DNA of 64,000 nt from assembly GCA_016191335.1 (NCBI GenBank), contig JACPOW010000001.1:1035-65034 (forward strand), given 5' to 3'. This document shows positions 7,121 to 64,000 of this stretch, piece after piece. This DNA comes from Elusimicrobiota bacterium. Lineage in GTDB: Bacteria; Elusimicrobiota; Elusimicrobia; UBA1565; UBA9628. The notes under the pieces are model-generated. The model made no database searches, was not told the DNA's origin, and saw only the letters and a list, made by a program, of their open reading frames with translations. Each line of letters opens with the position of its first letter. Within the stretch, counting starts at the first letter, position 1. Both the position numbers and the translations under genes were made by a program.

Positions 7121-7148
7121 AAAAAATAGAAGCGGCGTTAGCCGCTTC
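7121..7148 (-). terminator. Rho-independent terminator downstream of msrAB
   Basis: The minus strand reads GAAGCGGC-TAAC-GCCGCTTC (perfect 8-bp stem) followed by TATTTTTTGG. Confidence 0.7.
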
Positions 7149-7323
7149 CCTGGACTCATCCGGTTGAGGCCGGATCGTGGATACCCCGAGGCCGATTCCC
7201 CGAGCTACAGAGTTACTGTAGTTATGATAGTCCGGCCTGAGCGTGCCATCGAGGGTCTTACGGCCCAGATGACACTGGGTCTGACAGTTTTTGGGCGTCA
7301 GCCCAACTTAGATCAACTTCGCC

Positions 7324-54933: not shown

Positions 54934-56592
54934 TCATCTCCTCAGGCGCCAGACCCGCAGCCAGGGGCCCATCGTGGTCCCGGGCTCGGACGGGAATTCG
55001 CGGACCAGGTCGGCGCCGGCTGCGAGCTCCGCGAAGAAGGTGGCGAGCTCGCGGGCGCGGCGGGGGTCGGCGCCGAAGCTCGAGGTGACGACCCAGCGCG
55101 CGCGCACCGCGCGCACCGGGTCGAGGCCCGGGCGCACGTCGAGGAAATCCCCGTCGGCCTGAGAGGCGGCGACGTGGCGCGGCGAGGAGAACAGGTCCCC
55201 CGCCGAGCGCTGGATGCGGTAGACGCGCCAGCCGCCGCCGGGATGACGGTCGGCCATCGCGCGCCAGAGCCTCGAGCGCGGGGAGCCCGCGGCCGCGGTG
55301 CGGGAGGCCAGGTCCTCGCACTGCTCCTTCGACGGGGTCGCGCGCGGCGAGGCGTGGGGCAGGTCGAGGAGGATGGTCTCGCCCGAGGGGATGTTCGCCG
55401 TCATCCAGGCTTCCGCCTGCGCGCGCGTGTCCGGCAAGGTCAGGTCGGCGACGTAGCGCCACGAGAGGAACAGCCCGGGGGCCAGGACGAGGGCCGCGGC
55501 CGCCGCCCGCCGCCAGGGCCTCGTCCCGCCGAGCAAAGTCAGGCCCTCGCTCGACAGGAGGGCCAGCGCCGGGAACACGCCGAGCAGGTAGCGCTGCCAG
55601 CCCCCGTCGGGGCTCCCGGACAGGACCAGGTAGTACGCCGCGACCGGGACGGCCAGGAGGATGGCGCGGCGCGTCCGGCGCCACGCCAGCACGGCGAGCC
55701 CGATCACCGCCGCCGCCCCCGCGGGGGAGCCGTCCCCGCCGTAGGTCCAGAGGTTGTAGGCCACGGTCTTCGCCATCGCCGCCGCGTCGTGCGGGCGCAG
55801 GCGGCCCAGGTCGGCGTAATCCGTCCAGTCGGCGGCGAAGCGGGAGAAGTCGAGCGCGATGAAGGGAGAGCCGACGACGAACGCGGCGGCGGCGAAGGCC
55901 GCGGCTTGGAGGAGCCAGGTCCAGTACGGCGGCCCGCCCTCGCGCAGCAGCCAGGCGAGCGGCAGGAGCAGCGCCAACGGCGCGGCGGTGTATTGGGTCG
56001 AGCAGGCGGCGCCGACGAGCGCGCCCGCGGCGAACAGCCAGCCGCGCGCCCCGCCCGCCTGGAAGCGCAGGGCGCAGGCCCAGGCGCCGGCGGCGAAGAG
56101 CAGCATCAAGGAGTCGGGCTTGGCCGCGTGGGCCAGCTCGACGAGCACCGGGGAGAAGGCCAATATCAACGCGCCGTACGGCCAGCGCGTCCGGTCCTCC
56201 GCGCGCTCCGTGCGCGAGACGACGACGAGCGCTCCCAGCGACGCCGCCGCCGCGACCACGCGCGCGATCAGGTAGAAGCCCGTCGGGGCGAAGCCGTACA
56301 GCGCGGCGAAGTCCAACGCGGACTTGCGCAGGCCGAAGACCGACCACGCCCCGAACCACAGACCGTACAGCCCGGCGAGCATGGTCGGCCACACCGTCGG
56401 GTACTTGAACGAGTGCGGCCGCAGGCTGCCGCTGCCGAAGGACACCGCCATGTTGACCAGGTGCGGCTCGTCGGCGTTGTAGGTGTGGGGCAGGCCGTAG
56501 CCGATCTTGACGAAGCGCAGGGCCGCGGCCAGGAGCGCGCAGGCGATCAGGACCCAGGCCCAGGGCGACAGCGACTCGGCGCGCTTACGCAC
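54934..56592 (-). CDS. GT-C-fold (ArnT/PMT-like, GT39/83-type) membrane glycosyltransferase
   Basis: 552 aa. The first periplasmic loop carries ADEPH (the DE motif typical of GT-C). Many TM helices, then a C-terminal soluble domain. Confidence 0.65.
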   Translation of the reverse strand: MRKRAESLSPWAWVLIACALLAAALRFVKIGYGLPHTYNADEPHLVNMAVSFGSGSLRPHSFKYPTVWPTMLAGLYGLWFGAWSVFGLRKSALDFAALYGFAPTGFYLIARVVAAAASLGALVVVSRTERAEDRTRWPYGALILAFSPVLVELAHAAKPDSLMLLFAAGAWACALRFQAGGARGWLFAAGALVGAACSTQYTAAPLALLLPLAWLLREGGPPYWTWLLQAAAFAAAAFVVGSPFIALDFSRFAADWTDYADLGRLRPHDAAAMAKTVAYNLWTYGGDGSPAGAAAVIGLAVLAWRRTRRAILLAVPVAAYYLVLSGSPDGGWQRYLLGVFPALALLSSEGLTLLGGTRPWRRAAAAALVLAPGLFLSWRYVADLTLPDTRAQAEAWMTANIPSGETILLDLPHASPRATPSKEQCEDLASRTAAAGSPRSRLWRAMADRHPGGGWRVYRIQRSAGDLFSSPRHVAASQADGDFLDVRPGLDPVRAVRARWVVTSSFGADPRRARELATFFAELAAGADLVREFPSEPGTTMGPWLRVWRLRR

Positions 56593-57775
56593 GGCGGCCC
56601 TCCTTCCCCCGGACCAGGGCGAGCGCGCCCGCCGACGCGAGCAGGACCAGGAACGGCTCGAGGGGCAGGCGGTAGCGCAGCGAGGTGAAGAAGACCGAAT
56701 GCACGACGGTCAGATAGGCGAACAGCGCCCACACCGCTCCCCACGGCGAGGCCGCGGCGAAGGTCCCGCGCGCGCCCCACAGCGCCAGCGCGAAGACGAC
56801 GGTGAAGTAGACGCCCAGCGCCCCGCGCTGCCACCACACGTGCGGGTCGTACGGGAACGGCCGCCAGAACAGGAAGGCCTTGCCGACCACGATCTTCACC
56901 GCCCCGAGCGGGTCGGCGCGCACGAGCGCGGCGGTCTTCCTGGCGAAATGGTCGCCGACGGCGATCGGGTCGGTGAGGCCCAGCGCCTGGACCTCCGCCC
57001 CCATCTCCGCCGGGTGGCGGCGCACGACCTCGCGGTCGAGGGTGAAGCCTTCATACAGGTTCCAGCCCATCAAGGTCGCGGCGGGCACGACCTTCCCGTA
57101 TTTGAAATAGTTGCGCGCGGTCCACGCGGCCGACGGCGCCAGCCAGCCCGCGCCGAGCAAGGCGCAGAACAGGAAGGCGCGTTTAAGACCCTGCGCGCGC
57201 CACAGGACCAGGAACAGGAGGGCGGGATAGCCGCCGAGGACGGAACGGCACAGGACGCACAGGCCGCCCCACAAACCCCACGCGGCCAGACGCCAGGACA
57301 AGGGACGGTCCCACTCCTTCAACAGACCGACGAAGAACAACAATGTCATCGCGATGAACAAAGTCTCGGTCTGGAGATGAGGCGTGAAGAAGATGAGCGC
57401 GGGATCGACGGCGCACCACAGCGCGGCGAGCCGCGCGGTCTTATCGTCCGCCAGCCGCGAGCCGAGCCTGCGGACCAGGACGACGGAGGCCGCACCGGCG
57501 AGGCATTGGAGAAGAAGGACCGGAAGGGGATCCGGCGAGCGGAATATGCCGAGCAGCGCGGCGACGACCATCGTGTATAAAGGCGGATGCGTGGCGTCGA
57601 AGGCGGGCATCGGCAGCCAGCCGAGCCAGGACTGGGCCAGGTTGAAATAGAGGTCGCGGCCGTACACCTCGCCCAGGCCCTTGGCCACGAAGAAGGCGGT
57701 GAAGCCCAGACGCAACCCGAGCGCCAAGGCGAAGACCGCCGCGTCGTAGCGGCGCGCGCTCAGCCGTTCGAGCAT
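56585..57775 (-). CDS. GT-C-fold (PMT_2/ArnT-like) membrane glycosyltransferase
   Basis: 396 aa from ATG 57775. GRDLYFNLAQSW...THPPLYT loop; 9-11 TM helices. Overlaps the upstream GT2 gene by 16 nt. Confidence 0.65.
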   Translation of the reverse strand: MLERLSARRYDAAVFALALGLRLGFTAFFVAKGLGEVYGRDLYFNLAQSWLGWLPMPAFDATHPPLYTMVVAALLGIFRSPDPLPVLLLQCLAGAASVVLVRRLGSRLADDKTARLAALWCAVDPALIFFTPHLQTETLFIAMTLLFFVGLLKEWDRPLSWRLAAWGLWGGLCVLCRSVLGGYPALLFLVLWRAQGLKRAFLFCALLGAGWLAPSAAWTARNYFKYGKVVPAATLMGWNLYEGFTLDREVVRRHPAEMGAEVQALGLTDPIAVGDHFARKTAALVRADPLGAVKIVVGKAFLFWRPFPYDPHVWWQRGALGVYFTVVFALALWGARGTFAAASPWGAVWALFAYLTVVHSVFFTSLRYRLPLEPFLVLLASAGALALVRGKEGRRA

Positions 57776-58449
57776 CGAAGTCTCAGAAGCGTCCACAGCG
57801 CCTCGATCCCGTCGTACCAGCGGATCTTCTTGCCCTCCTCGATGCGGCGGGGGCGGTAGCTGATGGGCACCTCGAGGATGGGGATGCCGCGCAGAAGGGT
57901 CTTCGCCGTCACTTCGGGGCAGAACTCGAAACCGGTGCATTGGAGATCGAAGGACCGCAGCAAGGCGGTCTTGAACACCTTGTAGCAGGTGGGCTCGTCG
58001 GTGATCGACGAGCCGTACAGGAGATTGGTGAACACCGACACCAGGCGCCCGCCGTAGTAGTAGCGCGCGTAGGAGCGCTCGTTGCCCGCCGCCAGATGGC
58101 GCGAGCCGTACACGACCTCGGCCCGGCCCTCCTCGATGGGTAAAAGCAGTTTTGCGTAATCGGCCGGGTCGTACTCGAGGTCCGCGTCCTGGATGAGGAC
58201 CACCTCGCCCGTCGCCTTGGCCAGCGCCGTCCGTATCGCCGTCCCCTTCCCCGCGTTCTTCTCGTGCTTGAGCACGACCGTGCCGGGCTTGGCCGCGGCC
58301 TTCGCCGCCTCGTAGGTGCCGTCGGTGGAGCCGTCATCCACGACGATGACCTCGAGGTCCCGCCCCGGGTTGCGTCCGTACACCGCCTCGAGGCAGGCGG
58401 CGATGGTCTTGGCTTCGTTGTAGGCGGGGATGAGGACGGAGACCTTCAC
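57760..58449 (-). CDS. GT2 glycosyltransferase (polyprenol-phosphate mannose/glucose synthase-like)
   Basis: 229 aa. VLIPAYNEAKTI, VVDDGSTDGT and IQDADLEYDP. Confidence 0.8.
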   Translation of the reverse strand: MKVSVLIPAYNEAKTIAACLEAVYGRNPGRDLEVIVVDDGSTDGTYEAAKAAAKPGTVVLKHEKNAGKGTAIRTALAKATGEVVLIQDADLEYDPADYAKLLLPIEEGRAEVVYGSRHLAAGNERSYARYYYGGRLVSVFTNLLYGSSITDEPTCYKVFKTALLRSFDLQCTGFEFCPEVTAKTLLRGIPILEVPISYRPRRIEEGKKIRWYDGIEALWTLLRLRCSNG

Positions 58450-58799
58450 TTAAACGCCGCCTTCCACTCGTCTTCCTTGAACCCGAGCAGGCCGCGGTCC
58501 TTGAGCAGCACGAAAGGCCTCTTGACCAGGCGGCCGTTCTTCGACAGAAGCGCCAGCGCATCGGCCTCTTTCATCGTCTTGAGCTTCTCGCCGATCCCCA
58601 TCTCCCGGTAGACGACGCCGGAGGTGTTGAACAGGCGCTTCAGGTCTCCGGCGAAGGCGAGCATGGCCTTGAGCTCGGCCAAAGAGGGGGCCTGGTCCAC
58701 GATCGGCACGCGCTGATAAGCCACCTTCCGGGCGTCGAGGAACTTCAGCGCCTGGCGGCACGTGGAGCACTTCTCGTACTCGTAGACGCGCACGGTCAT
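58446..58799 (-). CDS. ArsC/Spx/MgsR-family thioredoxin-fold protein
   Basis: 117 aa. The N-terminal YEYEKCSTCRQALKFL CxxC context is typical of the family. It is the first gene of the long minus-strand train. Confidence 0.75.
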   Translation of the reverse strand: MTVRVYEYEKCSTCRQALKFLDARKVAYQRVPIVDQAPSLAELKAMLAFAGDLKRLFNTSGVVYREMGIGEKLKTMKEADALALLSKNGRLVKRPFVLLKDRGLLGFKEDEWKAAFK

Positions 58800-58933
58800 G
58801 GCTTGGATTATAGCGGTCCGGACCCAATTAAGGAAGGGGGGTCCAACGGGCCTCCCCGGGAGGGACCAAAGAAGCCCCCTCCTTGGGACCTCCGGCCCCC
58901 GTCGTCCCGACGGGGAAGGGCTACACTAACCCC

Positions 58934-61435
58934 ATGATGACTTCACCGCGCCGCGCCCTGTCCATCCTCCTGGCCGCCGCCCTTCTCCTGGGCGCGGTGC
59001 CTCCGGAAGCCCAGGCGCAGGTCGTCCGGGTCGCGTCCGGCCAGACCGGCGCCATGCCGGTCTCCCCCGTGACCGGACCGGTGACCGGGACGACGATGGC
59101 CCCCGCCCTCGGGATCGGCGCCGCGAGCCTTACTGGGACCTTGGCCGTCCCCTCCATCTCTCTCTCCCCCGTCGTCGCCCCGGCCGCCGTTTCCGCCGCC
59201 GTCCCGGTGGCCGCCGCCGCCCCGGCTCTGACCGCCACCCTCCGCGCCGCCGCCGCGGACGCCCCTAAGCTCCCCGACGCGCCCAAGGCCGCCGCCCCGG
59301 TCGAGAAGAAGACCTGGACCCAGCGCCTCGCCTCGATGCTCGGCCGCAAGCCCGCGCCCGCCGCTCCGTCCGCCGAGACCGCGAAGACCGACGCCGACAG
59401 GATGTTCGACGGCGCGTCCGAGACCGAGGCGTCGACCGAGGGCAAGCCCGTCACCGCGGGCGAGGTCAAGATCACGCACTCGTTCAAGGCCGGCCTGTCC
59501 GCCAAGCTCACCGCCCACAAGGCCCTCTCCGCCGCCAAGCGCGCCGCGACCGTGGACGAGTTCGGCGGCCCGCTCACCGAGCCGATGACCTTCCGCCAGC
59601 GCGTCGGCTACGGCCTCAAGCAAGGCCTCAACCTCGTCGGCCTCGGCGCCATCCTGGAGATGACGCTCCGCCCCTTCCTCGCCATCTTCCCGTGGCCGCA
59701 GTACATGTCCGACACCGCCCTGAGCGGCTTCGGCCGCGTCGCCCTGCTCGCCAAGTACGGTCCCAACGAGATCATCGAAGGCCTCGCCACCTCCCCCGCG
59801 ACCTTCCTCGGCCTCAGCATCCCCTGGGCCGTCACCATGGAGGAGATCTCCTACCGCCTCCTCGGCTTCGGCGCCATCTTCCTCGTCTTGGCCGCGGTCA
59901 AGCCCTTCACCCGCTGGATCTCGTCCATGATCGAGGGCCTTCCCGACGCGGCCGGCGTCGTCGGCGGCGCCAAGCGCGTGCTGAAGCTCGGCGACTGGCT
60001 GTCCCACCTCGCCTTCCCCATCGCCGCGGCCCTCTCCTCCCTGAGCTTCGCCGCCGCCCACTTCGCGACCTGGGGCTTCTCCCCCTTCGTCCTCGCCCTG
60101 AACGTCATCCTCGGCCTGTACCTGGCCCACACCGCCTACCGCAGCCGCGGCCTGACCGCGCCCATCATCGCCCATCTCGTCTTCAACCTCGTCACCGTCG
60201 GCGGCCTTCTCGTCGCGCTGACCTGGTCGCCCTTCGCCGGCGCCGCCTTCGCCGTCATCGCCGGCCTGATCGGCGCGTCCTCTTTGCTCCACGGCTGGCT
60301 GACGCGCCGCAAGGAGCGCGCCTTCCGCATGAAGAACGGCGCCAAGGCCCTCGTCGCCGTCATGATGCTCGGCGGCCTCCTCTCCGTCTGGAACGACCCG
60401 ACGCAGACCCGCCCCAACGAGGCCGTCTCGCGCGCCGCCATCGAACAGGTGCAGAGCAAGACCGAGGCCGCCCCCGCCCCCGTCGTCGCCGAGGCCCCGG
60501 CGGCCGTCGCCGCCGCCGTCGAGTCCCGCGAGGCGATGGTCGCCCGCGTCAAAGGCTCCGTCGTCAACGTGATCGTGCGCATGCCTCAGGGCATGGCCAC
60601 CGGCTCCGGCTTCATCCTCACGCCCGACGGCGTCTTCATCACCAACGCCCACGTCGTCGGCTCGCGCCAGCCCGGACAGCTCGTCGAGGCGCGCGTCCCC
60701 GGAGTGCAGGGCGTCATGAAGGCCAAGGTCCTCGCCGTCAACCACGACAAGGACCTCGCCATCGTCCAGCTCCAGCCGCGCGCCGACGGCAAGCCCTGGC
60801 CCGTCGTCAAGCTCGCCTCCGAAGCCCCGCGCGAGGGCGCCGACGTCACCGCCACCGGCTACCCGCGCGGCCTCCCGTTCACCGTCAGCGCCGGCGTCGT
60901 CAGCGGCATGGACGGCCGCGGGAACATGTACGTCAAGCACCTGCAGACCGACGCCGCGATCAACCCCGGAAACTCCGGCGGCCCGTTGTTCAACGCCAAG
61001 GGCGAGGTGGTCGGCGTCAACACGCAGATCTACACGCAGAGCGGCGGCTCCGAGGGCCTGGGCTTCTCCATCATGGCTCCCGAGGTGGCGCACGTGATGG
61101 CGCAGTACGCCGCCACCGGCAACATCGGCACGGCCTCTCTCGGCATCATCGCCAACCTCTCCGACCCGATGGCCCCCGAAGCGGGCCTCGAGATCGAGTA
61201 CATCCGCCACGGCTCGGCCGCCGAGAAGGCCGGCCTCAAGCGCGGGGACCTGATCATCGGCGTGGGCGAGGCGACCATCTCCGAGGGCGGCCAGGAGGCC
61301 GCGGGCCACATCGCGGCCGTCCTCTCCAAGATGATCCCGGGCCAGAAGACGACCATCACCGTCCTTCGCGGCGACGAGCCCGTGCAGCTCGAGCTCACCG
61401 CCGACGCGAAAGTCACCAAGGCTCCGAGCCACTAA
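58934..61435 (+). CDS. fusion protein: Ala/Pro-rich region + CPBP (CAAX/Abi) intramembrane protease + HtrA-type S1C serine protease + PDZ
   Basis: 833 aa from ATG 58934. CPBP motifs EEISYRLLGF, FAAAHF and AHLVFNL. HtrA triad contexts TNAHVV, DLAIVQL and GNSGGP. PDZ block GSAAEKAGLKRGDLIIGV. Confidence 0.8.
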   Translation: MMTSPRRALSILLAAALLLGAVPPEAQAQVVRVASGQTGAMPVSPVTGPVTGTTMAPALGIGAASLTGTLAVPSISLSPVVAPAAVSAAVPVAAAAPALTATLRAAAADAPKLPDAPKAAAPVEKKTWTQRLASMLGRKPAPAAPSAETAKTDADRMFDGASETEASTEGKPVTAGEVKITHSFKAGLSAKLTAHKALSAAKRAATVDEFGGPLTEPMTFRQRVGYGLKQGLNLVGLGAILEMTLRPFLAIFPWPQYMSDTALSGFGRVALLAKYGPNEIIEGLATSPATFLGLSIPWAVTMEEISYRLLGFGAIFLVLAAVKPFTRWISSMIEGLPDAAGVVGGAKRVLKLGDWLSHLAFPIAAALSSLSFAAAHFATWGFSPFVLALNVILGLYLAHTAYRSRGLTAPIIAHLVFNLVTVGGLLVALTWSPFAGAAFAVIAGLIGASSLLHGWLTRRKERAFRMKNGAKALVAVMMLGGLLSVWNDPTQTRPNEAVSRAAIEQVQSKTEAAPAPVVAEAPAAVAAAVESREAMVARVKGSVVNVIVRMPQGMATGSGFILTPDGVFITNAHVVGSRQPGQLVEARVPGVQGVMKAKVLAVNHDKDLAIVQLQPRADGKPWPVVKLASEAPREGADVTATGYPRGLPFTVSAGVVSGMDGRGNMYVKHLQTDAAINPGNSGGPLFNAKGEVVGVNTQIYTQSGGSEGLGFSIMAPEVAHVMAQYAATGNIGTASLGIIANLSDPMAPEAGLEIEYIRHGSAAEKAGLKRGDLIIGVGEATISEGGQEAAGHIAAVLSKMIPGQKTTITVLRGDEPVQLELTADAKVTKAPSH

Positions 61436-61453
61436 GTTTCGTATCGTTTCGGC

Positions 61454-61999
61454 ATGACCCGAAACCTCTGGCTCGCGGCGCTGCTCCTGTCCCCACTCCC
61501 GGTCCGCGCGGCGGAGGATCAGTACGCCGCGCTCAAGCCTCTCCTGGGCACCTGGCTCGTGGACCGCGACTGCCGGGTCTATAGAGACAAGGTCCTCGTC
61601 GTCTTCTCCCGCCAGCCCAAGAACGTCCTCGTCGAATTCCGCAGCCCGGGCAAGACCGAGGCGCTGTGGGGCAAGGCCGACATCACCTCGACCGGCGAGG
61701 AAGACCGCTACCGCGCGGTCACCGTCCTGCCGGGCAACCCGGTCCTCAAGGCGCTCGGCATCTCCTCGGTGAGCGGGAGCGTGAACGTCTCGACCGAGGA
61801 CGAGGACGACGAGGACTCGCTGCCTCACAACTACATCACGAGCACCTCGAAGGTCTCCGTGCTCTCGAGCCTGCTCACCATACGGCTGCGCGAGAAGTAC
61901 AAGAAGGGGACCTTCATCTTCAACGTCGAGTCGCCGATGGGCAAGCAGACCTGCCGGGGCTCGGGCGTGAAGCGGCCGGCCGCGAAGAAGCAGCCCTAG
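61454..61999 (+). CDS. secreted hypothetical protein
   Basis: 181 aa. Signal MTRNLWLAALLLSPLPVRA. Acidic patch EDEDDED. Lys-rich tail. Confidence 0.55.
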   Translation: MTRNLWLAALLLSPLPVRAAEDQYAALKPLLGTWLVDRDCRVYRDKVLVVFSRQPKNVLVEFRSPGKTEALWGKADITSTGEEDRYRAVTVLPGNPVLKALGISSVSGSVNVSTEDEDDEDSLPHNYITSTSKVSVLSSLLTIRLREKYKKGTFIFNVESPMGKQTCRGSGVKRPAAKKQP

Positions 62000-62373
62000 C
62001 GGGACGGCTCGCGCGCGGCGGGCTCCCGCCACAGCTTCCAGGAGCGCCAGAGGTTGATGACGGCGAGAGCCCCGAAGCCCGCCGTCATCGCCGCCGCCTC
62101 GCGGCTCTTTCCGACGGAACCCGCGTTCTGGGCCACGCCCGCCAGGCCGAGTCCGGCGTTGCCGCCCGTCGCGATCGCCTGGACCGTGAAGCTCTCCCCC
62201 TGCGCGTTGCGCGGGTCGCCGGGACGCCAGGGCCCGAACGGCGCGGGCGCGGGGGTCGAGCGGGCGAAGCGGGGGCGTGTATTGGCGTAGAGGTCCAGGT
62301 CGAGCTTGCCGGCGCGCGCGGGGCCGGCGAGGAGGAAGGCCGCGAGGGCGAGGCATGTTTTTACTCTGGTCAT
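61996..62373 (-). CDS. small secreted hypothetical protein
   Basis: 125 aa. Signal MTRVKTCLALAAFLLAGPARA. One C-terminal hydrophobic helix. Confidence 0.5.
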   Translation of the reverse strand: MTRVKTCLALAAFLLAGPARAGKLDLDLYANTRPRFARSTPAPAPFGPWRPGDPRNAQGESFTVQAIATGGNAGLGLAGVAQNAGSVGKSREAAAMTAGFGALAVINLWRSWKLWREPAAREPSR

Positions 62374-62419
62374 GGGATCTGAGTCGTCGTTTTCCGTCGC
62401 GTCTGACTCGTCGCCGAAA

Positions 62420-62463
62420 AACTATTGATAATCACTGTTCCCGGGACTAGTGATTATCGTTAG
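62420..62463. repeat. intergenic palindrome family A, copy 2 (degenerate)
   Basis: actattgataatcactgttcccgggactagtgattatcgttagt matches copy 1 at 39 of 44 positions. The two arms differ at 4 positions. Confidence 0.8.
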
Positions 62464-62508
62464 TGAATACACCCTACGGCAATCGTCCGGAGACATCCGA
62501 TGGGCGGT

Positions 62509-63969
62509 CTATAACCCTTTCTTCCGAACCCATTCCCGCCATCCAGCTACCCATTCCGCGCCAAGAGCGTCGTTGGGCAAAGCGATTCGACTGCTGGGCG
62601 CCCCAGTGATTTTCTGAAGGGCCCTCGCGGCGTGCAGGCGCGTATCCGGAGAATTCGCGGGGTCTGAAAAAACGCCGATGAGGTCTGGCGCAAAGGAATT
62701 AGAATTAAGCGATTGGCCTTCATACAAGGCGCGGTAGGCAACCGATTCAGTCGCCGCAGCTCGAAGCGCCAGATTTTTACCGCTCAAATATCGCCTGAGA
62801 GCGGCCTCCACCGGTTTTCCAGGCAAATTCGCCAATCCTCTCATCGCGCCGGTTTCAGGTCTGTCGGGATTCTTCTCCAGCACGCTCATCAAGATTCTCG
62901 CGCAGCGCTCAGGATCCCTCTTGCGGATCGTGTACGCCAATTCACTCACCTTCCATGGATATAGTTTTGCCGCGGCGGCTTCCACGCGGACCGGATCAGG
63001 CTGCAAGCCAAGGTTGCTGATCAAGCGAGACGCATGCCGGTCTCCGTAGCGCCGCGAGTCCGAAGCTTCCATCTCTACCTGGCGCATCAGAAGCTCGCTG
63101 GCGCGCGAGCTGTCCTTTCGCGCCGCGGCCCCATAAGCTTCCAACTGAAGGGATGGGGATTCCGATCCCATATCCACAAAAACCTCCTCCAACGCCTGCT
63201 TTTCGCCCATTTCGATCAGCGAGGCGTAGGCGGCGTCCCGGAGCATCCCTGCCTTCGCGGTCCGCTCTCGCGCGAGCCGATATAAATGTGGGATGAGTCG
63301 CGGGGCTTTGCAGAGGCGCGGGACATAACTGTTGTGGAAGATGAAGTCTTCGTCGAAGGATGCGATGTGATCCAGCGCCGTTTCACATGCACCGGCGTCC
63401 GCCGACGTCATCGCCTGAGCGGAGATCGCCTCGATCGTCTCGCGCGGCGGCAGTTTGGCCCGCTTCATGTTTCTGGATTGAAGCGCGCTCAAGACAAGGC
63501 GCCACTTCGCCGAATCGTCCCACATTTGAGTTCCCACATCACCTGCCTCGCCCCGGGTGAGATGCAACGCATATTCGCCGATGGCGGAGGCGCGTTTGGG
63601 GCGCCCTTCTTGAACGGCTTTCAGCAACGCTTTTCGGACGGCGGCGGTGGAGGGATAGGAGCTGAGGCCGTAACTGGCCTCGATCTGGACGTTCCCGTGC
63701 TCATCGTCCAGCCCGTCGATCATCAACGTTAGCGCCTCCGGGCTCATCAGAAATCGCAACAGATGCTGGGCTTGCTCGCGCTGTCTGAATTCCGTGCTCT
63801 TCATCATGGATCGAGCTTGAGAAATCGTGCCGGCGATGAACTGCTCGTTTGCGGGAATCAGTTCGAAGTCGAGCGGCGGGCTTTGGATCGGAGTGTAGGG
63901 GCCCTGCATCGCGTCCAGGTGGATCATGCCCGGCGACGCTGAGACGGAGTGGCGTCCTGGACGATTCAA
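62509..63969 (-). CDS. alpha-helical repeat (HEAT/ARM-like) hypothetical protein in an AT-richer region
   Basis: 486-aa ORF with lower G+C than its surroundings. Repetitive helical segments (…ALLKAVQEGR…, …AALRRYLSGKNLALRAAATESV…, …ARALQKITG…). The N-terminus and start near the window edge are uncertain. Confidence 0.5.
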   Translation of the reverse strand: MNRPGRHSVSASPGMIHLDAMQGPYTPIQSPPLDFELIPANEQFIAGTISQARSMMKSTEFRQREQAQHLLRFLMSPEALTLMIDGLDDEHGNVQIEASYGLSSYPSTAAVRKALLKAVQEGRPKRASAIGEYALHLTRGEAGDVGTQMWDDSAKWRLVLSALQSRNMKRAKLPPRETIEAISAQAMTSADAGACETALDHIASFDEDFIFHNSYVPRLCKAPRLIPHLYRLARERTAKAGMLRDAAYASLIEMGEKQALEEVFVDMGSESPSLQLEAYGAAARKDSSRASELLMRQVEMEASDSRRYGDRHASRLISNLGLQPDPVRVEAAAAKLYPWKVSELAYTIRKRDPERCARILMSVLEKNPDRPETGAMRGLANLPGKPVEAALRRYLSGKNLALRAAATESVAYRALYEGQSLNSNSFAPDLIGVFSDPANSPDTRLHAARALQKITGAPSSRIALPNDALGAEWVAGWREWVRKKGL

Positions 63970-64000
63970 GAGCGCCCACTCGTTCAGGTCCGCCGTTTGC

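What the first reader, a model, noticed from the sequence alone, without database searches (positions are those of the whole stretch)
58934..61435. Single polypeptide combining an intramembrane CPBP protease with an HtrA-type serine protease and PDZ domain
Seen:
- All three CPBP motifs are present (EExxxR in EEISYR, FxxxH in FAAAHF, HxxxN in HLVFN).
- The complete HtrA triad contexts are present (NAHVV, DLAIV, GNSGGP).
- A PDZ domain occurs in the same 833-aa ORF.
- These follow a signal sequence and a ~200-aa Ala/Pro-rich region.

Inference: two mechanistically different proteases are tethered across the membrane, possibly as a processing or quality-control device. I am not aware of this architecture being characterised.
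Basis: partly seen in the sequence, partly recalled or inferred. Interest (0 to 1): 0.6.

Follow-up and report, generated by a model that had tools for sequence, protein, structure and literature searches.

The report
Membrane CPBP protease fused to HtrA
One gene of an uncultured groundwater Elusimicrobiota bacterium really does join a membrane-embedded CPBP (Rce1-like) protease to a periplasmic HtrA-PDZ serine protease, and relatives keep the same pair either fused or as two overlapping genes, so the two proteases almost certainly work together, on substrates that are still unknown.

Summary
ORF 58934-61435 (+) encodes 833 aa. It has a Sec-type signal peptide, a ~190-aa disordered Ala/Thr/Pro/Val-rich region and a polytopic CPBP/Rce1-like core. 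A basic loop plus one more hydrophobic helix and an Ala/Pro linker follow, then an HtrA protease with one PDZ domain.

All three CPBP motifs and the His-Asp-Ser triad are invariant in 42 family members down to 36% identity. It is not an assembly artefact. About 45 sequence clusters from independent Elusimicrobiota assemblies have the same architecture, and independent contigs span the junction.

The new point is that the pairing is older than the fusion. In three of five divergent relatives with informative contigs, the CPBP is a separate gene whose stop overlaps by 4 nt the start of a separate HtrA gene. That HtrA carries its own cleavable signal peptide. So the HtrA half is periplasmic, and the fusion's internal hydrophobic segment sits where that signal peptide was.

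The CPBP half belongs to a narrow clade: 56 hits among 1.84 billion representative proteins. It matches only CPBP profiles and reaches no named subfamily's cut-off.

The function is inferred: cooperative or sequential proteolysis of envelope or membrane proteins at the periplasmic face. No substrate, sigma/anti-sigma pair or other conserved partner was found. The membrane topology has an unresolved parity problem. I found no paper on this architecture. I rate it a new variant of known kinds.

The parts
58934..61435 (+). Whole gene, 833 aa plus stop (an alternative upstream TTG lies at 58883)
58934..59017 (+). Sec-type signal peptide, residues 1-28 (RR, hydrophobic core, AQA|Q)
   Evidence: Read directly from the sequence. 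SP-like N-termini are kept across the clade.
59018..59548 (+). Disordered Ala/Thr/Pro/Val-rich N-region, residues 29-205. It contains the near-invariant F158-D159-G160 island (59405-59413).
   Evidence: Composition; pLDDT below 50; conservation
59555..59572 (+). Juxtamembrane D-E-F-G-G-P motif, residues 208-213. It is near-invariant across the clade and modelled with high confidence as part of the core.
59591..60304 (+). CPBP / Rce1-like membrane core, residues 220-457. Six clear helices: 220-251, 288-320, 360-380, 384-404, 408-430, 433-457.
   Evidence: Pfam PF02517; only CPBP families hit in NCBIfam; core model pLDDT 90.8
59840..59857 (+). CPBP motif 1, EEISYR (E303 E304 R308)
   Evidence: Invariant in 42 sequences. 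E303 is invariant in the wider clade.
60047..60061 (+). CPBP motif 2, FAAAH (F372 H376)
60173..60187 (+). CPBP motif 3, HLVFN (H414 N418)
60305..60391 (+). Basic loop RRKERAFRMK plus hydrophobic segment ALVAVMMLGGLLSVW, residues 458-486. This is an internal signal-anchor at the position of the separate HtrA's signal peptide.
   Evidence: Present in every fused member; stand-alone CPBPs end inside the basic tail. Separate HtrAs start with Sec signal peptides.
60392..60523 (+). Variable Ala/Pro linker, residues 487-530, predicted disordered. The L006 frameshift and the L008 nonsense codon both fall in the equivalent stretch.
60524..61117 (+). HtrA (S1C) protease domain, residues 531-728. Triad: H573 (60650-60652), D607 (60752-60754), S681 (60974-60976).
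61118..61408 (+). Single PDZ domain, residues 729-825, with an S-L-G-I carboxylate-binding loop (A734 and G737 invariant)
61454..61999 (+). 181-aa secreted protein of unknown family, 19 nt downstream with no terminator-like site between. It is possibly co-transcribed and is not a clade-wide partner.

Best explanation
The gene encodes a two-active-site inner-membrane protease.

Shown:
- The N-terminal half is a catalytically complete member of the CPBP (Rce1-like, glutamic-type intramembrane) superfamily.
- The C-terminal half is a DegS/HhoA-like HtrA serine protease with one PDZ domain.
- The two are partners across a whole Elusimicrobiota clade, either fused or as translationally coupled neighbouring genes.

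Inferred with good support:
- The fusion arose by joining a CPBP gene to the overlapping downstream HtrA gene.
- The CPBP's basic cytoplasmic tail and the HtrA's signal peptide became a loop plus an extra transmembrane helix.
- That helix exports the HtrA-PDZ to the periplasm and keeps it tethered by a ~45-residue flexible linker.

Inferred by analogy:
- In archaeal Rce1 the catalytic cavity opens on the side opposite the C-terminus.
- With a cytoplasmic C-terminal end of the core, the cavity here opens to the periplasmic face, the same side as the HtrA. The substrates of the bacterial CPBP myxosortase are also presented at that face.

Proposed mechanism (inference):
- The two proteases act on the same exported or membrane-anchored proteins.
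- The PDZ-gated HtrA, probably trimeric, degrades or clips unfolded periplasmic parts.
- The CPBP cuts the membrane-proximal or membrane-embedded remainder.
- This would be a one-polypeptide counterpart of site-1/site-2 proteolysis, serving envelope protein quality control or maturation.
- The enzyme's own Ala/Val-rich disordered N-region, with its conserved FDG and DEFGGP islands, is a candidate tethered regulatory or self-processed segment.
For: Architecture and motifs.

Recurrence: about 45 clusters at 37-88% identity, all with PF02517 + PF13365 + PDZ. 33 of 44 representatives at 50% identity carry Trypsin_2.

Narrow clade: the CPBP half alone finds only 56 proteins among 1.84 billion, mostly 800-990 aa.

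Two-gene versions with a 4-nt overlap: L010/L011, L012 and L013.

Topology evidence:
- The separate HtrAs start with MRRLLLAGLLALGATRAAAQ and MTGWLLLLAAAASAQA.
- Every fused member has a basic stretch followed by a 15-residue hydrophobic segment, and stand-alone CPBPs end inside the basic tail.
- Loop charge across the family: L2 +2.6, L4 +2.0 and L6 +5.0 net, against L1 -0.4, L3 -0.2 and L5 0.

Same HtrA lineage: separate HtrA partners score 156-184 bits against fused HtrA halves and 87-116 bits against three generic HtrAs.

Fold: the HtrA-PDZ half superposes on DegS, DegQ, AlgW and HhoA, with TM-score normalised to the target up to 0.84.

Literature: Rce1 topology and cavity orientation from PMC5874806. 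Myxosortase substrates and the position of the motifs in TM helices from PMC11980579.

Assembly continuity.
Against: - No substrate or activity data exist.
- No gene neighbour is conserved across the clade. No sigma/anti-sigma pair or C-terminal-sorting-signal protein was seen within about 5 kb.
- Topology parity is unresolved. A cleaved N-terminal signal peptide plus the six clear helices would put the basic loop outside, contrary to its charge and to the signal-peptide logic. A seventh, cryptic crossing has to be assumed. The best candidate is residues 260-286, with invariant G267, R268, G276 and P277 and low pLDDT.
- Foldseek did not recover Rce1 (4CAD) for the CPBP-only model, and a clade profile did not hit it by sequence. 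The cavity orientation therefore rests on family-level analogy.
- Two distant stand-alone CPBPs have no adjacent HtrA.
Confidence: 0.6

Rival explanations
1. The CPBP half is mainly a polytopic membrane anchor or regulatory scaffold for the HtrA protease and is not itself proteolytic. Precedents are non-catalytic CPBP-like regulators, and the four-helix anchor of mycobacterial MarP.
For: The query also matches the MarP family model (NF033740) through its protease part plus the preceding segment, E 5e-26. A few divergent clade members have a degraded motif 1, ET...x in place of EE...R (P0083, P0086, P0087, P0092, P0103).
Against: E303, F372, H376 and H414 are about as conserved as the serine-protease triad across the whole clade, and all seven motif residues are invariant in 42 close members. 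The variants keep the first Glu. In Rce1 that is the catalytic one, while the second Glu points away from the cavity (PMC5874806). In two-gene versions the HtrA has its own cleavable signal peptide and needs no anchor, yet the pairing is kept.
Confidence: 0.15
2. The CPBP is a sorting or maturation protease of the myxosortase type. It removes a membrane-anchoring signal from specific exported proteins. The HtrA is an attached quality-control partner that clears mis-sorted precursors or cleaved stubs.
For: The core's NCBIfam hits include MrtJ (14 of 24 members), the myxosortase core (7 of 24) and MrtS/MrtP. Myxosortase acts on substrates anchored in the inner membrane with the cleavage motif at the periplasmic face (PMC11980579).
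Against: All those hits are far below the families' cut-offs, for example 20.9 bits against 75 for MrtJ. No candidate protein with a C-terminal sorting signal was seen next to the gene. The 181-aa downstream protein has no C-terminal hydrophobic helix. A genome-wide search for a cognate signal was not done.
Confidence: 0.15
3. The fusion is an artefact: an assembly join or a sequencing error that merged two adjacent genes.
For: Two relatives show the halves as separate ORFs. L006 has a frameshift in the linker. L008 has GAG changed to TAG in the linker.
Against: About 45 independent clusters from NCBI, JGI, ENA and Logan assemblies have the uninterrupted ORF, and independent contigs from different samples span it. 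In L006 and L008 the downstream half has no signal peptide of its own, unlike the genuine two-gene versions. Those two are isolated lesions or errors.
Confidence: 0.01

Closest known systems
DegS + RseP (E. coli sigma-E regulated intramembrane proteolysis)
   Same: A membrane-tethered, single-PDZ HtrA protease in the periplasm works with a polytopic intramembrane protease. The HtrA-PDZ half superposes on DegS, with TM-score normalised to the target of 0.75-0.77.
   Different: Here the two are one polypeptide, or an overlapping gene pair. The intramembrane partner is a glutamic-type CPBP, not an M50 zinc site-2 protease. No anti-sigma or ECF sigma gene was seen nearby. Whether cleavage is sequential is untested.
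Rce1 / CPBP superfamily (MmRce1, PDB 4CAD; myxosortase MrtX; MroQ)
   Same: EExxxR, FxxxH and HxxxN motifs lie in membrane helices. The Pfam PF02517 match is above its cut-off. Only CPBP models are hit in NCBIfam.
   Different: - No named subfamily's cut-off is reached.
- Only one clear helix precedes the EE helix, where Rce1 has three.
- There is a cleavable signal peptide and a ~190-aa disordered periplasmic N-region, with extra invariant FDG and DEFGGP motifs.
- A ~40-residue basic loop is inserted between motifs 1 and 2.
- No Foldseek or sequence link to 4CAD was recovered.
MarP (Mycobacterium tuberculosis), MamE and MamO (magnetosome HtrA-like proteins)
   Same: A periplasmic chymotrypsin-fold protease domain is attached to a membrane-spanning region. 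MarP, MamE and MamO family models give weak matches.
   Different: By my own knowledge of those families, not tested here, their membrane parts are not proteases: MarP has four plain helices and MamO a TauE-like transporter domain. Here the membrane part carries a second, complete active site.
ABC_perm_CPBP (NF041647) fusions
   Same: These show that CPBP domains are fused to other membrane modules. This family is the most frequent NCBIfam hit of the core, 19 of 24 members.
   Different: The partner there is an ABC permease, not a protease. The scores are far below the cut-off.

Membership tests
CPBP / Rce1-like intramembrane glutamic endopeptidases (PF02517) | Match to the family profile above the curated cut-off | tested here: met
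   The query scores 24.9 bits against a cut-off of 22.4. 39 of 44 clade representatives match, best E 4.7e-14.
CPBP / Rce1-like intramembrane glutamic endopeptidases (PF02517) | Motif 1 EExxxR, motif 2 FxxxH, motif 3 HxxxN/D | tested here: met
   E303 E304 R308, F372 H376 and H414 N418 are invariant in 42 sequences. In the wider clade a few members have ET..x, or another residue in place of N418.
CPBP / Rce1-like intramembrane glutamic endopeptidases (PF02517) | The motifs lie inside transmembrane helices | tested here: met
   Modelled helices 288-320, 360-380 and 408-430 contain them. Hydropathy agrees.
CPBP / Rce1-like intramembrane glutamic endopeptidases (PF02517) | Fold like the solved MmRce1 (4CAD) | tested here: inconclusive
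   Foldseek of the confident core model (pLDDT 90.8) gave no hit with E below 0.37, and 4CAD was absent. The clade profile against PDB sequences gave no hit.
CPBP / Rce1-like intramembrane glutamic endopeptidases (PF02517) | Proteolytic activity that depends on the Glu/His residues | not testable with these tools
   Needs biochemistry.
Named CPBP subfamilies (MrtJ/MrtX myxosortases, MroQ, ABC_perm_CPBP) | Score above the NCBIfam equivalog cut-off | tested here: not met
   MrtJ 20.9 bits against 75. MroQ 16.3 against 270. ABC_perm_CPBP 16.7 against 435.
HtrA / DegP-DegQ-DegS (peptidase S1C) | Chymotrypsin-fold protease domain with a His-Asp-Ser triad | tested here: met
   Trypsin_2 scores 105.4 bits. 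H573, D607 and S681 are invariant. Fold matches to DegQ, DegP and DegS have E around 1e-21.
HtrA / DegP-DegQ-DegS (peptidase S1C) | At least one C-terminal PDZ domain | tested here: met
   PDZ_2 scores 27.4 bits against 27. PDZ models are matched by 31 of 44 representatives. The structural alignment covers protease plus PDZ1 of DegQ/DegS.
HtrA / DegP-DegQ-DegS (peptidase S1C) | Score above the Do-family subfamily cut-off (TIGR02037) | tested here: not met
   191.5 bits against 416.2. The match covers model positions 57-332 of 434, that is the protease plus the first PDZ only.
HtrA / DegP-DegQ-DegS (peptidase S1C) | Extracytoplasmic location | tested here: met
   This is indirect. Separate partner HtrAs carry cleavable Sec signal peptides. 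The fused form has a basic loop plus a hydrophobic segment at the same position. There was no experimental test.
HtrA / DegP-DegQ-DegS (peptidase S1C) | Trimer-based oligomer | not tested
   No multimer modelling was possible.
DegS-RseP type regulated intramembrane proteolysis | A cognate membrane-spanning anti-sigma substrate and an ECF sigma factor | tested here: not met
   No such genes appear among the neighbours in the window or in loci L008 and L010-L015. Genome-wide presence was not examined.
DegS-RseP type regulated intramembrane proteolysis | An M50 (S2P) zinc metalloprotease as the intramembrane enzyme | tested here: not met
   The membrane half is a CPBP. RseP models match only through the PDZ domain.

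The most novel reading that the evidence does not exclude
The protein is a self-contained two-step proteolysis machine. A PDZ-gated HtrA makes the first, periplasmic cut, and a tethered glutamic-type CPBP protease makes the second, membrane-level cut on the same substrate. That would be the first case of regulated or quality-control intramembrane proteolysis run by a CPBP enzyme, and the first with both steps in one chain. Its own conserved N-terminal disordered tail (FDG and DEFGGP islands) would act as a tethered regulator or self-substrate.
Probability: 0.3. Interest if true: 0.7.

Novelty: new variant of a known kind. Interest (0 to 1): 0.5.

Why it matters
Bacterial CPBP proteases are very numerous, but only a handful have a known role (myxosortase, MroQ). 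This finding gives one CPBP clade a conserved partner, in fused and in overlapping two-gene forms, that is a well-understood periplasmic quality-control protease. That is a concrete, testable functional clue: it places the CPBP in envelope proteolysis at the periplasmic face.

If the two sites act in sequence, it would extend the site-1/site-2 logic of regulated intramembrane proteolysis to a fourth class of intramembrane protease. It would also offer a naturally tethered system for studying the hand-over between the two steps.

The limits are that the clade is known only from uncultured Elusimicrobiota, and that nothing about its substrates is known.

Tried and rejected
- **Assembly or frameshift artefact: rejected.** The architecture is widely conserved and independent contigs span the junction. 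The two split cases in close relatives are a linker frameshift (L006) and a single GAG-to-TAG change (L008), with no export signal on the downstream half.
- **Anti-phage defence (Abi-type): rejected.** The PADLOC hits come only through the generic trypsin-like domain.
- **N-terminal module shared with an M48 protease (P0050): unresolved.** The match is 55% identity over 200 aa. However, P0050 is a singleton on a 1,959-nt contig with no close relatives of the same architecture, so it could be a chimeric contig.
- **Conserved third partner or substrate gene: none found.** None is conserved across the clade.
- **Profile-based genome scan with the core alignment: failed.** No stretch was conserved enough. 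A scan with the distant member P0066 returned only an unrelated Paenibacillus HtrA. Taxonomy of distant members was taken from cluster names instead.
- **Literature: nothing found.** Four searches found nothing on this architecture.
- **Other copies in the window: none.** There are no further copies of any of the three modules.
Full report
**1. What is there**

The + strand carries an ORF from 58883 (TTG) or 58934 (ATG) to 61435. Homologues start at the equivalent of the ATG, so the product is most likely 833 aa. GC content over the gene is about 0.70-0.76, like the flanking genes.

Reading along the protein:
- Residues 1-28 are a Sec-type signal peptide: RR, a 15-residue hydrophobic core, then AQA|Q.
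- Residues 29-205 are rich in Ala (24%), Thr (11%), Pro (10%) and Val (9%).
- Residues 220-457 hold six clearly hydrophobic helices.
- Residues 458-471 are a strongly basic loop (RRKERAFRMK).
- Residues 472-486 are one more hydrophobic segment.
- Residues 487-530 are an Ala/Pro linker.
- A protease domain and a PDZ domain follow.

**2. Domain assignments**

Pfam gives Trypsin_2 at 105.4 bits, PDZ_2 at 27.4 bits (cut-off 27) and Rce1-like PF02517 at 24.9 bits (cut-off 22.4).

In NCBIfam the C-terminal half matches the Do/HtrA subfamily at 191.5 bits. That is below the cut-off of 416, and the match covers the protease plus the first PDZ only. It also matches HhoA, DegS, DegQ, MarP and MamE models.

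The CPBP match is marginal for this one sequence but secure for the clade. 39 of 44 representatives match PF02517, best E 4.7e-14. When the isolated core is scanned against NCBIfam, every family hit is a CPBP family: ABC_perm_CPBP in 19 of 24 members, MrtJ in 14, MroQ in 11 and the myxosortase core in 7. None reaches a family cut-off.

**3. Motifs**

In an 18-sequence alignment and a 42-sequence alignment, down to 36% identity, these residues are invariant: E303, E304, R308, F372, H376, H414, N418, H573, D607 and S681.

In the wider clade, at 23-47% identity to the query, E303 is invariant, and F372, H376 and H414 are kept in at least 90% of sequences. A few members have ET..x instead of EE..R, or a different residue at N418. 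According to the Rce1 review (PMC5874806), the first Glu, the two His and the Asn line the catalytic cavity, while the second Glu points away. The variants therefore keep the essential Glu.

Two further islands are as conserved as the catalytic residues: F158-D159-G160 in the otherwise disordered N-region, and D208-x-F-G-G-P213 just before the first helix.

**4. Not an artefact**

A search of 5.8 billion protein clusters found about 45 clusters with the same PF02517 + PF13365 + PDZ architecture, at 37-88% identity, from NCBI, JGI, ENA and Logan assemblies. Every named one is from Elusimicrobia/Elusimicrobiota.

The source is a groundwater metagenome. Its own Logan contig of 10,286 nt matches 58800-61500 with no differences. 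A 6,975-nt contig from a wastewater run spans the whole gene, with indels that are frame-preserving in sum and lie in the variable linker.

Two close relatives have the halves as separate ORFs. L006 has a frameshift in the linker. L008 has a single GAG-to-TAG change there. In both, the downstream half has no export signal, so these are isolated lesions or errors and not evolved two-gene forms.

**5. A narrow clade with a constant partner**

An exhaustive phmmer search with the CPBP half alone (residues 200-500) against 1.84 billion representative proteins found only 56 hits. Most are 800-990 aa long. 33 of 44 representatives carry Trypsin_2.

About nine representatives are 430-550 aa and end inside the basic tail, straight after the last core helix. 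I looked up the genomic context of six of them:
- P0088 (loci L010 and L011), P0085 (L012) and P0089 (L013): the CPBP gene's stop overlaps by 4 nt the start of a separate HtrA gene of 379, 314 and 372 aa.
- P0100 and P0104, the most distant members: no adjacent HtrA.
- P0087: the contig is too short to tell.

The separate HtrAs score 156-184 bits against fused HtrA halves and 87-116 bits against three generic HtrAs. This is consistent with one lineage, though the control set is small. The pattern is a classical fusion/fission ("Rosetta stone") pattern, and it is the strongest evidence that the two proteases function together.

**6. Topology**

The separate HtrAs begin with classical cleavable signal peptides, MRRLLLAGLLALGATRAAAQ and MTGWLLLLAAAASAQA. 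The HtrA partner is therefore periplasmic.

In every fused member, the same position holds a basic stretch followed by a 15-residue hydrophobic segment. In other words, the CPBP's cytoplasmic basic tail plus the former signal peptide now act as an extra transmembrane helix.

Loop charges across the family agree. L2 (321-359), L4 (402-407) and L6 (456-471) are net +2.6, +2.0 and +5.0. L1, L3 and L5 are about zero or negative.

In MmRce1 the cavity opens on the side opposite the termini (PMC5874806). With the core's C-terminal end in the cytoplasm, the cavity here should open to the periplasm, on the same side as the HtrA. The substrates of the bacterial CPBP myxosortase also present their cleavage motif at that face (PMC11980579).

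One problem is unresolved. A cleaved N-terminal signal peptide plus six clear helices would put the basic loop outside. A seventh crossing is needed, and the best candidate is residues 260-286. This is a helix-coil-helix segment with invariant G267, R268, G276 and P277 and low model confidence. I could not inspect model coordinates.

**7. Structure**

The full-length model (pLDDT 67) is confident for residues 200-470 and 530-830. It predicts disorder for residues 1-185 and 478-527.

The HtrA-PDZ half matches DegQ, DegP, DegS, AlgW, MucD and HhoA at E around 1e-21, with TM-score normalised to the target up to 0.84. It has one PDZ domain and a minimal LA loop, so it is DegS/HhoA-like and not cage-forming DegP-like. 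The last point comes from reading the sequence and my knowledge of the family.

The core-only model is confident (pLDDT 90.8, pTM 0.86). Foldseek nevertheless found no significant PDB match, and 4CAD was not listed. A clade profile found nothing among PDB sequences. The Rce1 fold is therefore not independently confirmed.

**8. Context**

Upstream, and divergently transcribed, are an ArsC-family gene, a family-2 glycosyltransferase and two PMT_2-type membrane glycosyltransferases. This arrangement is syntenic in close relatives.

Nineteen nucleotides downstream is a 181-aa secreted protein with no family match, and no terminator-like site lies between. It is kept only in close relatives and is adjacent only in L008.

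No neighbour is conserved across the wider clade. No sigma/anti-sigma genes were seen. PADLOC hits arise only from the trypsin-like domain.

**9. Interpretation**

The best-supported reading is a bifunctional envelope protease. Its periplasmic, PDZ-gated HtrA and its periplasm-facing CPBP act on common exported or membrane-anchored substrates. The most attractive specific model is sequential cleavage, analogous to site-1 and site-2 proteolysis.

What is shown: the architecture, the conservation of both active sites, the fused and two-gene pairing, and the periplasmic targeting of the HtrA partner.

What is inferred: the cavity orientation, cooperation on shared substrates, and any role of the N-region.

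The rivals are a CPBP that serves as a mere anchor, a myxosortase-like sorting role, and an artefact. They are weighed in their own sections.

**10. Novelty**

Both protease families are well known, and automatic annotation has labelled the two domains in one JGI entry. No paper in the searched library describes the combination. The CPBP core reaches no named subfamily's cut-off. I rate it a new variant of known kinds, of moderate interest.

Noticed in passing
window 7145-7215 (-): A 2dG-II purine riboswitch aptamer (RF03165) scores 74.8 bits against a gathering score of 60 and matches the full length of the model.
   Followed up: no
window 62250-64000: GC content falls from about 0.70 to 0.57-0.61. 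The stretch holds a 486-aa HEAT-repeat ORF on the minus strand (62509-63969). It may be foreign or differently constrained DNA.
   Followed up: no
protein P0050 (1,959-nt Logan contig), compared with window 58934-59542: A 529-aa protein carries the same signal peptide and Ala/Pro-rich N-region, including the FDG island, at 55% identity over 200 aa. Its other half is a Peptidase_M48 domain. It is a singleton with no close relatives of that architecture, so it is either a real domain shuffle or a chimeric contig.
   Followed up: partly
window 59405-59413 and 59555-59572: Two short islands, F158-D159-G160 and D208-E-F-G-G-P213, are as conserved across the clade as the catalytic residues, although the first lies in a region predicted to be disordered. 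Their role is unknown.
   Followed up: partly
L006 7560-7660; L008 5500-5535: Two close relatives carry lesions in the same Ala/Pro linker: a frameshift in a complete-genome MAG, and a GAG-to-TAG nonsense change. Each splits the ORF and leaves the HtrA half without an export signal.
   Followed up: yes
window 60893-60983: Contig depth spikes 10- to 30-fold in all four metagenome runs. Many short contigs end at about 60944 and 60985, the stretch that encodes GNSGGP, which is shared by many unrelated HtrA genes in these communities.
   Followed up: partly
window 54934-58799 (-): A divergently transcribed cluster of an ArsC-family gene, a GT2 glycosyltransferase and two PMT_2-type membrane glycosyltransferases is syntenic with the fusion gene in close relatives. 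The 451-aa ORF 56585-57940 overlaps the GT2 ORF by 181 nt. The equivalent gene in L008 is called as 396 aa, so its true start is probably further downstream.
   Followed up: partly
L015 2180-6228: Next to a distant stand-alone CPBP of this clade there is no HtrA. Instead there are a 460-aa unknown protein, a Peptidase_S8 (subtilisin-type) gene and a short Trypsin_2-like fragment within 4 kb. A different serine protease may be the partner there.
   Followed up: no
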